From the human T2T-CHM13v2.0 reference genome, Homo sapiens: 64,000 nt of DNA. The translations under genes were made by a program, and so were the position numbers. A model generated the notes under the pieces. It had not been told where the DNA came from, searched no databases, and was given only the letters and a program-made list of their open reading frames with translations. Of the stretch, positions 56,578 through 57,976 are shown in pieces. The stretch covers positions 37,696,001 to 37,760,000 of the forward strand of contig CP068257.2 of the NCBI GenBank assembly GCA_009914755.4. Reading direction: 5' to 3'. Position 1 is the stretch's first letter. Every line of letters starts with the position of its first letter.

Positions 56578-56888
56578 TTGGTTGGTTTGTTTGTTTGTTT
56601 TTGAGACGGAGTCTCATTCTGTCTCCCAGGCTGGAGTACAGTGGCATGATCTCTGCTCACTGCAACCTCTGCCTCCTGGGTTCAGGTGATTCTCTCACCT
56701 CAGTCTCCCCAAGTAGCTGAGATTACAGGTGCCCATCAACCAGCCCGGCTAATTTTTGTATTTTTAGTAGAGACAGGGTTTCACCATGTTGGCCAGGCTG
56801 GTCTTGAACTCCTGACCTCAGGTGATCCACCCGCCTTGGCCTCCCAAAGTGCTGGGATTACAGGTGTGAGCCACTGCGCCCGGCCGGA
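56578..56888 (-). mobile_element. Alu SINE, antisense (duplication copy 1)
   Basis: Consensus; shares ctcacctcagtctccccaagtagctgagattacaggtgcccat with the Alu at 57297. Confidence 0.9.
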
Positions 56889-56945
56889 ACTGGAACTCTT
56901 GTACGCTGTTAGTCACTGCTAGAGGGAATATAAAATGGTATAACT

Positions 56946-57240
56946 GGCCAGGTGCTGTGGCTCCCGCCTGTAATCCCAGCACTTTGAGGGCGAGGCGGGT
57001 AGATCACGAGGTCAAGAGATCGAGACCATCCTGGCCAACATGGTGAAACCCTGTCTCTACTAAAAATACAAAATTATCTGGGCATGGTGGCGCGCGCCTG
57101 TAGTCCCAGCTACTCGGGAAGTTGAGGCAGGAGAATCGCTTGAACCCAGGGGGCAGAGGTTGCAGTGAGCCGAGATCACGCCACTGCACTACAGCCTGGG
57201 CGACAGAGTGAGACTCCATCTCAAAAAAAAAAAAAAAAGG
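56946..57240 (+). mobile_element. Alu SINE, sense, inserted in an L1 segment (duplication copy 1)
   Basis: Flanked by L1 ...aaaatggtataac | ...ggtataactatgctatac. TSD ggtataac. Confidence 0.9.
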
Positions 57241-57296
57241 TATAACTATGCTATACTACTTTGCAAAAGAGGTTAGCAGTTTCTTGAAATACATTT

Positions 57297-57588
57297 CTTT
57301 TTTTTTGAGACAGAGTCTTGCTGTCACCCAGGCTGGAGTGTAGTGGTGCAATCTCGGCTCACTGCAAGCTCCGCCTCCCGGGTTCAAGCAATTCTTTCAC
57401 CTCAGTCTCCCCAAGTAGCTGAGATTACAGGTGCCCACTAACCTGCCGGCTAAGTTTTGTATTTTTAGTAGAGACAGGGTTTCACCATGTTGGCCAGGCT
57501 GGTCTTGAACTCCTGACCTCAGGTGATCTGCCCGACTCAGCCTCCTAAAGTGTTGGGATTACAGGCGTAAGCCACTGTGCCCAGCCAG
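57297..57588 (-). mobile_element. Alu SINE, antisense (duplication copy 2)
   Basis: Consensus; paralogous to 56578-56888. Confidence 0.9.
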
Positions 57589-57646
57589 AACTGGAACTCT
57601 CGTACACTGTTAGTCACTGCTAGAAGGAATGTAAAATAGTATAACT

Positions 57647-57930
57647 GGCCAGGCATGGTGGCTCCTGCCTGTAATCCCAGCACTTTGAGTCCGAGGCAGG
57701 TGGATCACGAGGTCAAGAGATCAAGACCATCCTGGCCAACATGGTGAAACCCCATCTCTACTAAAAATACAAAAATTACAAAAATACAAAAATTATCTCT
57801 CCGAGTCCCATCTACTAGAGAGGCTGAGGCTGGAGAATCACTTGAACCTGGGAGGTGGAGGTTGCAGTGAGCCGAGATCGCACCACTGCACTCCACCCTG
57901 GCGACAGAGTGAGACTCCGTCTCAAAAAAA
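57647..57930 (+). mobile_element. Alu SINE, sense (duplication copy 2), same L1 insertion site and TSD as 56946-57240
   Basis: Flanks ...gaatgtaaaatagtataac | ...ggtataactatgttatac. Confidence 0.9.
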
Positions 57931-57976
57931 AAGGTATAACTATGTTATACTACTTTGCAAAACAGTTTCTCAAAAT

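What the first reader, a model, noticed from the sequence alone, without database searches (positions are those of the whole stretch)
56578..57975. Diverged tandem duplication of a ~700-bp composite Alu(-)/L1/Alu(+) unit
Two units match. Copy 1 is Alu(-) 56578-56888, an L1 59-mer, Alu(+) 56946-57240, then an L1 tail. Copy 2 is Alu(-) 57297-57588, an L1 59-mer, Alu(+) 57647-57930, then an L1 tail. Both Alu(+) copies sit at the identical L1 position with the same TSD (ggtataac). The Alu insertion therefore preceded a segmental tandem duplication, rather than these being independent insertions. The L1 59-mers differ at ~6 of 59 positions, so the duplication is old. A third partial unit follows at 57977-58105.
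Basis: seen in the sequence. Interest (0 to 1): 0.5.

Follow-up and report, generated by a model that had tools for sequence, protein, structure and literature searches.

The report
Old 700-bp Alu/L1 tandem duplication
A 700-base stretch of primate "junk" DNA (two back-to-back Alu elements sitting inside an old L1 fragment) was copied once in tandem, probably some 10-30 million years ago, with both break points in the poly-T tails of two neighbouring Alu-type elements; it is a real but ordinary example of repeat-mediated duplication.

Summary
Window 56603-57297 and 57307-57978 are two colinear copies of one composite unit: Alu(-) body, 60-nt L1 spacer, Alu(+), L1 tail. They are 90.4% identical over 655 aligned bases. 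The two L1 pieces occur nowhere else in the window. Both Alu(+) copies lie at the same L1 position with the same 9-bp target-site duplication, GGTATAACT. The two Alu(-) copies share more rare substitutions than any other of 1,770 Alu pairs in the window. Only Alu(-)1 has both copies of its own 17-bp TSD. Both Alus were therefore in place before a single ~700-bp tandem duplication.

The "third partial unit" (57979-58102) is not a copy. It is an older, monomeric, FLAM-like Alu-family element, 71-74% identical to the unit's Alu(-). It marks the ancestral right edge. The unit1|unit2 junction and the end of unit 2 both lie in T-runs, so the break points map to the tails of two same-orientation elements: Alu(-)1 and the monomer. 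The best explanation is a poly-T (A-tail) mediated unequal exchange or template switch, a known class of transposable-element-mediated rearrangement.

Non-CpG divergence of 5.4% suggests about 19 Myr (12-28 at 0.15%/Myr). No orthologous sequence was available. Interest is low.

The parts
56216..56575 (+). Upstream part of the host L1 fragment (ORF2 C-terminal region); not duplicated
   Evidence: Translation matches human LINE-1 ORF2p residues 1018-1081, E=1.4e-6. No second copy in the window.
56559..56575 (+). Left copy of the Alu(-)1 target-site duplication, GGAACTGGAACTCCTGT
   Evidence: 16/17 match to 56886-56902. Read directly.
56576..56602 (-). T-rich tail of Alu(-)1 (GGTTGGTTGGTTTGTTTGTTTGTTTTT); the left break point of the duplication lies inside it
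   Evidence: Unit 2 starts with a T-run plus GAGAC and lacks the left flank of Alu(-)1.
56603..56885 (-). Alu(-)1 body (AluS-type dimer), start of unit 1
   Evidence: 89.7% to the window Alu majority consensus. 90.1% to Alu(-)2.
56886..56945 (+). It begins with the right TSD copy of Alu(-)1 (56886-56902) and ends with the left TSD copy of Alu(+)1 (GGTATAACT, 56937-56945).
56946..57238 (+). Alu(+)1, body plus A16 tail
   Evidence: 91.0% to the window consensus. A16 at 57223-57238.
57239..57297 (+). L1 tail 1; begins with the right TSD copy GGTATAACT (57239-57247)
57298..57306 (.). T9 run at the unit1|unit2 junction, the recombinant tract
   Evidence: junction print-out...GAAATACATTTC T9 GAGACAGAG.
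57307..57586 (-). Alu(-)2 body, start of unit 2; has no left TSD copy
   Evidence: Top of 1,770 Alu pairs for rare substitutions shared with Alu(-)1. Follows Alu(-)1 at 15 of 21 informative sites at its start, against 2 for the monomer.
57587..57646 (+). L1 spacer 2. Includes AGAACTGGAACTCTCGT, a copy of the right TSD of Alu(-)1, and AGTATAACT.
   Evidence: 91.5% to spacer 1.
57647..57932 (+). Alu(+)2, body plus A9. It has a 17-nt linker duplication (57763-57795) and has lost about 22 nt relative to Alu(+)1.
   Evidence: Shares the 2-bp deletion at consensus positions 41-42 and 2 rare substitutions with Alu(+)1.
57933..57978 (+). L1 tail 2, with an 8-bp deletion relative to tail 1
   Evidence: 93.5% over 46 nt.
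57979..58102 (-). Older free Alu monomer (FLAM-like) with a T9 tail at 57979-57987. It is the ancestral right neighbour of the unit, and its T-run is the right break point. It is not a third unit.
   Evidence: 73.5% to the left-monomer consensus with 3 gap columns; 71-74% to Alu(-)1 and Alu(-)2. (best window hits are unrelated Alus).

Best explanation
This is a fixed, ancient tandem duplication of about 700 bp in primate (human-type) DNA.

Proposed order of events:
1. An old L1 ORF2 fragment on the + strand acquired a free Alu monomer (FLAM-like) in minus orientation.
2. A dimeric AluS-type element inserted in minus orientation, with the 17-bp TSD GGAACTGGAACTCYTGT. An AluSc-like element inserted in plus orientation 60 bp downstream, with the 9-bp TSD GGTATAACT.
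3. An unequal exchange between sister chromatids or homologues, or a backward template switch during replication, joined the T-run of the downstream monomer to the T-rich tail of Alu(-)1. This duplicated everything in between: the Alu(-) body, the spacer, Alu(+) and the L1 tail.
4. The two copies then decayed independently. CpG sites were hit first. Tail 2 lost 8 bp. Alu(+)2 gained a 17-nt linker duplication and lost about 22 nt. Its A-tail is now 9 nt against 16 in Alu(+)1.

Shown: that there was one duplication, that both Alus predate it, and where the junctions lie.
Inferred: that the monomer predates the duplication, that homology between the T-tracts caused the event, and the date.

No function is implied. 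The structure is a neutral by-product of repeat instability.
For: - The alignment is colinear through four different sequence types at a uniform 90-93% identity.
- The L1 spacer and the L1 tail are unique to these two units in the window.
- Both units have the same Alu(+) insertion site and TSD.
- The Alu(-) pair shares 6 rare substitutions against a mean of 0.41 over 1,770 pairs, the highest count. The Alu(+) pair shares a private 2-bp deletion.
- Alu(-)1 has both TSD copies, 56559-56575 and 56886-56902. Alu(-)2 has only the right one.
- Junctions: unit 1 ends ...AAATACATTTC + T9 + GAGAC (the Alu body). Unit 2 ends ...AAATAC + T9 + AGGGATGGGG (the monomer). The L1 tail therefore stops at the same L1 position in both units, in each case at a T-run.
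- The first 60 nt of Alu(-)2 follow Alu(-)1 at 15 informative sites and the monomer at 2. The switch is therefore in the T-tract, not in the element bodies.
- Only about 3% of local bases lie in T>=5 runs. Two unrelated break points both falling in such runs would happen by chance about once in 1,000 times (rough).
- The monomer is much more diverged than the four dimeric Alus: 73.5% to the consensus against 86-91%. This fits an earlier arrival.
- Shared versus private non-CpG changes put the duplication at about half the age of the Alus: 0.52 and 0.44.
- Literature (PMC9675761): 91% of TE-mediated deletions and duplications have junctions in same-orientation TEs, the median TE-mediated duplication is 1,085 bp, and 10 events had junctions in poly-A tails.
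Against: - The visible homology at the break points is short and of low complexity. Alu(-)1 now has only 5 uninterrupted T next to its body, and the other two tracts have 9. Classical homologous recombination is therefore unlikely. The event cannot be told apart from microhomology-mediated end joining, a replication template switch, or a coincidence.
- T-tracts mutate fast, so their state at the time of the event is unknown.
- No single-unit ortholog was available, so the ancestral arrangement is a reconstruction.
- No clear TSD was found for the monomer, so its insertion was not demonstrated separately.
- The date depends on an assumed rate and on only 29 substitutions.
Confidence: 0.8

Rival explanations
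1. Same tandem duplication, but the break points are unrelated to the repeats. Random double-strand breaks were repaired by non-homologous end joining, or a replication slip happened to end in T-runs.
For: The homology at the junction is only a 5-9-nt homopolymer. T-runs are frequent in this Alu-rich region: 4 runs of T>=9 in 56000-58200.
Against: Both break points fall in T-runs, which cover about 3% of the local sequence. Each run is the tail of a minus-strand Alu-family element, the configuration reported for TE-mediated duplications (PMC9675761).
Confidence: 0.12
2. Classical Alu/Alu homologous recombination inside the element bodies. A full-length Alu(-) once stood where the monomer now is, Alu(-)2 is a chimera of that element and Alu(-)1, and the downstream element was later reduced to a monomer.
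For: The plus-strand left half of the Alu(-) pair is slightly less similar than the right half: 88.7% against 91.5%, and 80% against 91% in the gapless comparison (D11, D4).
Against: - The difference is small. It comes from small indels and independent CpG decay.
- Several of the rare shared substitutions (consensus positions 145-190) lie in that left half.
- Alu(-)2 follows Alu(-)1 rather than the monomer from its first bases.
- The monomer is colinear with a left monomer and is about 26% diverged from the consensus. It is not a truncated relative of Alu(-)2.
Confidence: 0.04
3. There was no duplication. Alus inserted independently into two neighbouring paralogous L1 fragments, or the repeat is an assembly artefact.
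For: None beyond the general abundance of Alus (60 near-full-length copies in the window).
Against: - The insertion site and 9-bp TSD of Alu(+) are identical in both units.
- The same 60-nt spacer separates the two Alus in each unit.
- The Alu pairs share rare substitutions and a 2-bp deletion.
- Alu(-)2 lacks a left TSD copy.
- About 10% divergence with many private indels rules out an assembly duplicate.
Confidence: 0.01
4. The closely spaced inverted Alu pair caused the event. A hairpin or cruciform stalled a replication fork and triggered the template switch that made the duplication.
For: Each unit can fold into a hairpin of about 290 bp with a 60-nt loop (dG -264 kcal/mol, z = -38.6). 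Inverted Alu pairs are known to be destabilising and are depleted in the genome (PMC3215922).
Against: - Any inverted Alu pair gives such a fold.
- The arms are only about 84% identical.
- In the 51-205-bp spacer class, which includes this 60-nt spacer, the depletion of inverted pairs is mild: inverted:direct ratio 0.898, against 0.076 at spacers of 24 bp or less (PMC3215922).
- The pair has survived in two copies for millions of years.
- The sequence records nothing about the trigger.

This rival concerns the trigger and is compatible with the best explanation.
Confidence: 0.15

Closest known systems
Transposable-element-mediated rearrangements (TEMRs), also called Alu/Alu-mediated rearrangements; specifically tandem duplications with junctions in same-orientation Alus, including the poly-A-tail junction subclass (Balachandran et al. 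2022, PMC9675761; Song et al. 2018, PMC6071635)
   Same: - Two Alu-family elements in direct orientation flank the duplicated segment.
- The size (~700 bp) is in the reported range of 93 bp to 25 kb; the median for duplications is 1,085 bp.
- The junction element is recombinant: tail from one parent, body from the other.
- The junction lies in a poly-T (poly-A) tract, as in the 10 poly-A cases that paper reports.
   Different: - This event is ancient and presumably fixed, whereas those are polymorphic or pathogenic variants.
- One partner is a free monomer, not a dimeric Alu.
- No chimeric Alu body with GC-rich microhomology is formed.
Small-scale duplication of Alus together with their flanks (Jurka et al. 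2004, PNAS, 'Duplication, coclustering, and selection of human Alu retrotransposons'; cited from my own knowledge, not read here)
   Same: Alu copies that look like neighbouring insertions are in fact products of a local DNA duplication that carried the flanking sequence along.
   Different: I could not check that paper's criteria here. The present case carries two Alus in opposite orientation in each unit.
Closely spaced inverted Alu pairs (Lobachev et al. 2000 and Stenger et al. 2001, as cited in Cook et al. 2011, PMC3215922)
   Same: Each unit holds a tail-out, head-to-head inverted Alu pair with a 60-nt spacer. It can form a long hairpin.
   Different: The spacer and the arm divergence (~84% identity) put it in the mildly depleted class, not the strongly excluded class (<=24 bp). 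Nothing here shows instability beyond the single duplication.
TE-derived tandem repeats and minisatellites (Ahmed & Liang 2012, PMC3389668)
   Same: A two-copy tandem array built from TE sequence. Most TE-derived arrays in that survey also have only about 2 units.
   Different: That survey concerns units of 10-100 bp inside a single TE. Here the unit is about 700 bp and spans three TEs.

Membership tests
Tandem (segmental) duplication, as opposed to independent retrotransposon insertions | Colinear similarity that runs through the non-Alu flanks as well as the Alus | tested here: met
   Spacer 91.5%, tail 93.5%. Both are unique to the two units in the window.
Tandem (segmental) duplication, as opposed to independent retrotransposon insertions | Same insertion site and same TSD for the element in both copies; the duplicated element lacks its own complete TSD pair | tested here: met
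   GGTATAACT flanks Alu(+) in both units. Alu(-)2 has only the right copy of the 17-bp TSD of Alu(-)1.
Tandem (segmental) duplication, as opposed to independent retrotransposon insertions | Paired elements share private (non-subfamily) mutations | tested here: met
   Alu(-) pair: 6 shared rare substitutions, rank 1 of 1,770 pairs, background mean 0.41. Alu(+) pair: a shared 2-bp deletion and 2 rare substitutions. The evidence from the Alu(+) body alone is weak.
TE-mediated rearrangement (Alu-family elements at both break points) | Both break points lie in TEs of the same family in direct orientation | tested here: met
   The left break point is in the tail of Alu(-)1 (56576-56602). The right break point is at the T9 of the minus-strand monomer (57979-57987).
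TE-mediated rearrangement (Alu-family elements at both break points) | The junction element is a recombinant of the two parental elements, with (micro)homology at the switch point | tested here: inconclusive
   The junction is the L1 tail, then T9, then the Alu(-)1-type body. The only shared sequence is a T-run of 5-9 nt, and its length at the time of the event is unknown.
TE-mediated rearrangement (Alu-family elements at both break points) | The ancestral single-copy allele shows both parental elements intact | not testable with these tools
   No primate genomes are available. Metagenome and prokaryote-genome scans for the spacer gave no homologous locus.
Homologous-recombination type Alu/Alu event (chimeric Alu body) | The switch point lies inside aligned Alu bodies and reconstructs a full Alu from two parents | tested here: not met
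   Alu(-)2 follows Alu(-)1 from its first bases: 15 sites against 2. No monomer-derived body sequence is present.
Free left Alu monomer (FLAM), for the element at 57979-58102 | About 120-130 nt, a single monomer, colinear with the Alu left monomer, lacks the right-monomer insert, has its own A-tail | tested here: met
   117 aligned positions and 3 gap columns against the left monomer, versus 34 gap columns against the right monomer. T9 tail present. Assignment to a subfamily (FLAM_A or FLAM_C) needs Dfam/RepeatMasker and was not tested.
LINE-1, for the host sequence | Translated similarity to L1 ORF2p | tested here: met
   E=1.4e-6 to human ORF2p residues 1018-1081 for the frame-2 translation of the reconstructed pre-Alu sequence. 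Only the first 60 of 148 query residues, from the unduplicated upstream L1, aligned; the spacer and tail did not.

The most novel reading that the evidence does not exclude
The inverted Alu hairpin inside the unit was the trigger. A replication fork stalled at the hairpin and restarted by a template switch between the two flanking poly-T tails. On this reading the locus is a natural fossil of hairpin-induced, A-tail-guided duplication. It may still vary in copy number among humans or apes, and if it is transcribed it carries two long dsRNA-forming Alu pairs.
Probability: 0.1. Interest if true: 0.3.

Novelty: already known. Interest (0 to 1): 0.08.

Why it matters
It matters little beyond careful annotation. 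Neighbouring Alus of the same subfamily can be products of one DNA-level duplication rather than of separate retrotransposition events. That affects Alu insertion counts, subfamily age estimates and phylogenetic use of Alu presence/absence markers at this locus. The locus is also a clean fixed example of a duplication whose two break points lie in the A-tails of unlike Alu-family elements, a junction class that has only been noted briefly among polymorphic variants (PMC9675761). Two 90%-identical 700-bp units in tandem, each with an inverted Alu pair, could support further copy-number change.

Tried and rejected
- Tandem Repeats Finder did not report the array, because its longest period in this tool is 500. 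The repeat finder and a direct alignment were used instead.
- Raw pairwise identity does not separate duplicates from independent Alus. Young Alus in the window reach 92% identity to each other, and the unit's pairs are not among the top 12.
- A first count of shared rare variants on a 60-sequence MAFFT alignment with BLAST-truncated ends was blurred: only 3 and 1 shared rare sites. It was replaced by projecting each padded element onto a consensus coordinate system.
- Chimeric Alu(-)2 hypothesis. It was prompted by 80% against 91% gapless identity in the two halves. It was rejected after the gapped alignment gave 88.7% against 91.5%, after the shared-variant map, and after the three-way comparison with the monomer.
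- Third-unit hypothesis: rejected.
- Search for the locus elsewhere. The 18-mer from the spacer hit 5 metagenome contigs, none homologous to the window. A 24-mer found nothing in the prokaryotic genome collection. Cross-species dating was therefore impossible.
- No convincing TSD was found for the monomer.
- The Rfam scan found nothing inside the region.
- One literature search failed on term syntax.

Full report
**1. What is in the sequence**

The window is primate-type DNA and very rich in Alus. It holds 60 near-full-length copies, 30.8% of its bases are Alu-similar, and GC is 44.8%.

Reading 55800-58800 and aligning 56540-57300 against 57241-58000 gives one colinear match that passes through four kinds of sequence in the same order.

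- Unit 1:
  - Alu(-)1 body 56603-56885
  - L1 spacer 56886-56945
  - Alu(+)1 56946-57238, including A16
  - L1 tail 57239-57297
- A T9 run follows at 57298-57306.
- Unit 2:
  - Alu(-)2 body 57307-57586
  - L1 spacer 57587-57646
  - Alu(+)2 57647-57932, including A9
  - L1 tail 57933-57978

The repeat finder reports the 701-702-bp spacing independently (D4, D11, D13). Tandem Repeats Finder missed the array only because its longest period here is 500.

**2. Is it more than chance?**

Identity is uniform across the segments:

| Segment | Identity |
|---|---|
| Alu(-) | 90.1% |
| Spacer | 91.4% |
| Alu(+) | 89.8% |
| Tail | 93.5% |
| Whole unit | 90.4% over 655 aligned bases (63 mismatches, 48 of them transitions) |

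The two non-Alu pieces decide the question. A BLAST of each against the whole window finds only the partner copy (E = 1e-19 for the spacer, 2e-10 to 5e-10 for the tail), and every other hit has E >= 0.1. The spacers differ at 5 of 59 positions. The upstream L1 (56220-56577) and the sequence downstream of 58138 have no second copy, so the duplication is confined to about 700 bp.

**3. Were the Alus there before the duplication?**

Raw identity cannot answer this, because unrelated young Alus in the window reach 92% identity. I therefore projected all 60 Alus onto one consensus coordinate system and counted states that are non-majority and present in at most 5 copies.

- The Alu(-)1/Alu(-)2 pair shares 6 such states. 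This is the highest count among 1,770 pairs (mean 0.41).
- The Alu(+) pair shares 2 rare substitutions and a 2-bp deletion at consensus positions 41-42.

The flanks confirm this.

- Both Alu(+) copies are bracketed by GGTATAACT at the same L1 position: 56937-56945 / 57239-57247, and 57638-57646 (AGTATAACT) / 57933-57941.
- Alu(-)1 has its own 17-bp TSD, GGAACTGGAACTC[C/T]TGT, at 56559-56575 and 56886-56902.
- Alu(-)2 has only the right-hand copy (57587-57603). On its left it abuts the L1 tail of unit 1.

Both Alus therefore predate a single duplication. Independent insertion and assembly artefact are excluded.

**4. The host sequence**

I removed the Alus and one copy of each TSD and translated the result. 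The translation matches human LINE-1 ORF2p residues 1018-1081 with E = 1.4e-6.

**5. The 'third partial unit'**

The sequence at 57979-58102 is a minus-strand Alu-family element, but it is not a copy of the unit.

- It is a single monomer of about 125 nt.
- It aligns to the Alu left monomer with 3 gap columns and to the right monomer only with 34 gap columns.
- It is 73.5% identical to the consensus.
- It is 71-74% identical to Alu(-)1 and Alu(-)2, which are 90% identical to each other.
- Its best matches in the window are unrelated Alus.
- A true third unit would begin with the antisense right monomer.

It is an older free monomer of the FLAM type. The subfamily name was not tested.

**6. Where the break points are**

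The three relevant junctions:

| Position | Sequence |
|---|---|
| Left edge of unit 1 | ...CTCCTGT GGTTGGTTGGTTTGTTTGTTTGTTTTT GAGACGGAG |
| unit1\|unit2 | ...CTTGAAATACATTTC TTTTTTTTT GAGACAGAG |
| Right edge of unit 2 | ...CTCAAAATAC TTTTTTTTT AGGGATGGGG (monomer) |

- The L1 tail stops at the same L1 position in both units, each time at a T-run.
- The duplicated segment starts inside the T-rich tail of Alu(-)1.
- At sites where Alu(-)1 and the monomer differ, the start of Alu(-)2 follows Alu(-)1 at 15 sites, the monomer at 2 and neither at 4. The switch is therefore in the T-tract and not in the element bodies.
- T>=5 runs cover about 3% of the neighbourhood. Two unrelated break points both landing in such runs is roughly a 1-in-1,000 coincidence. 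This is my rough inference.

**7. Mechanism**

The most economical reconstruction has two steps.

1. The ancestral arrangement was L1 - Alu(-) - spacer - Alu(+) - L1 tail - monomer(-).
2. An unequal exchange or a backward template switch joined the monomer's T-run to the T-rich tail of Alu(-)1, 700 bp upstream.

This is the configuration reported for transposable-element-mediated duplications. In PMC9675761, 91% of such events have junctions in same-orientation TEs, the median duplication is 1,085 bp, and 10 events have junctions in poly-A tails.

The homology is a short homopolymer. A microhomology-mediated or replication-based process is therefore more plausible than classical homologous recombination, and the sequence cannot separate these.

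I considered a chimeric Alu(-)2, meaning body-to-body Alu/Alu recombination. The prompt was 80% against 91% gapless identity in its two halves. With gaps allowed the halves are 88.7% and 91.5% identical. The difference comes from indels and independent CpG decay. Several rare shared substitutions also lie in the 'less similar' half. I rejected this idea.

**8. Age**

Excluding consensus CpG positions and the rearranged linker of Alu(+)2, the copies differ at 29 of 534 sites. That is 5.4% (Poisson 95% interval 3.6-7.8%).

- At 0.15%/Myr per lineage this gives about 19 Myr (12-28). That rate is commonly used for non-CpG Alu sites and is taken from my own knowledge.
- At 0.10-0.20%/Myr the point estimate is 28-14 Myr.
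- Shared versus private non-CpG changes place the event at about half the age of each Alu (0.52 and 0.44).

'Old' is therefore correct. Whether the duplication predates the ape/Old World monkey split cannot be decided here.

**9. Later changes**

- Tail 2 lost 8 bp (GAGGTTAG).
- Alu(+)2 acquired a 17-nt duplication in its A-rich linker (57763-57795; TRF score 66) and lost about 22 nt (GGGCATGGTGGCGCGCGCCTGT).
- Its A-tail is now 9 nt, against 16 in Alu(+)1.

**10. Inverted Alu pairs**

Each unit contains an inverted Alu pair with a 60-nt spacer. As a single strand, unit 1 folds into a hairpin of about 290 bp (-264 kcal/mol, z = -38.6). This is expected of any inverted Alu pair.

The arms are about 84% identical. 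In the 51-205-bp spacer class, which includes this spacer, the genome-wide depletion of inverted pairs is mild: inverted:direct ratio 0.898, against 0.076 at spacers of 24 bp or less (PMC3215922). A role for the hairpin in triggering the event is possible but untestable here.

**11. Outside evidence**

Exact-pattern scans for the spacer found 5 metagenome contigs. None is homologous to the window. Nothing was found in the prokaryotic genome collection. No primate ortholog is reachable with these tools.

**12. Verdict**

- The core interpretation is supported: the Alus came first, then one old tandem duplication.
- The third-unit claim is wrong. That element is instead the probable recombination partner.
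- The phenomenon is a well-known kind of repeat-mediated rearrangement with no indication of function.
- Interest is low.

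Noticed in passing
window 33922-34028 (-): Rfam snoU13 (RF01210) match, 70.9 bits against a gathering score of 46, full model length. A-rich sequence lies just 3' of it, so it is probably one of the many U13-like retro-copies rather than a functional gene.
   Followed up: partly
window 62047-62194 (+): Metazoa_SRP (RF00017) match barely above threshold (71.5 against 70 bits). The sequence is a 148-nt monomeric Alu-family element carrying the right-monomer insert (GGCTGCAGTGAGCTAT...). It is a free right monomer type, not a 7SL RNA gene.
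   Followed up: partly
window 1-64000: Very high Alu density: 60 near-full-length Alus, 81 merged Alu-similar intervals, 30.8% of all bases. GC is 44.8%. The genomic locus and gene context were not identified.
   Followed up: no
window 55374-55559: Imperfect polypyrimidine array of about 185 bp (CCCTT/CCCCT/TTCCCCCTTCCC-type units, 70-77% matches). It lies directly left of a minus-strand Alu that begins near 55565. It could be an expanded, mutated tail or a triplex-prone tract.
   Followed up: no
window 59009-59106: Compound microsatellite: (AC)17.5, perfect, followed by an imperfect (AG)n. It sits at the 3' end of the plus-strand Alu at 58698-58990.
   Followed up: no
window 58108-58137: T-rich tract CC-T10-CC-T16 immediately right of the FLAM-like monomer, followed by non-Alu sequence. 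Its origin is unclear. It may be the tail of a lost or truncated minus-strand element.
   Followed up: no
window 58138-58266 and 58562-58697: Non-Alu sequence interrupted by a minus-strand Alu (58279-58561). It does not continue the L1 ORF2 fragment of the duplicated region and has no other copy in the window. The element type was not identified.
   Followed up: no
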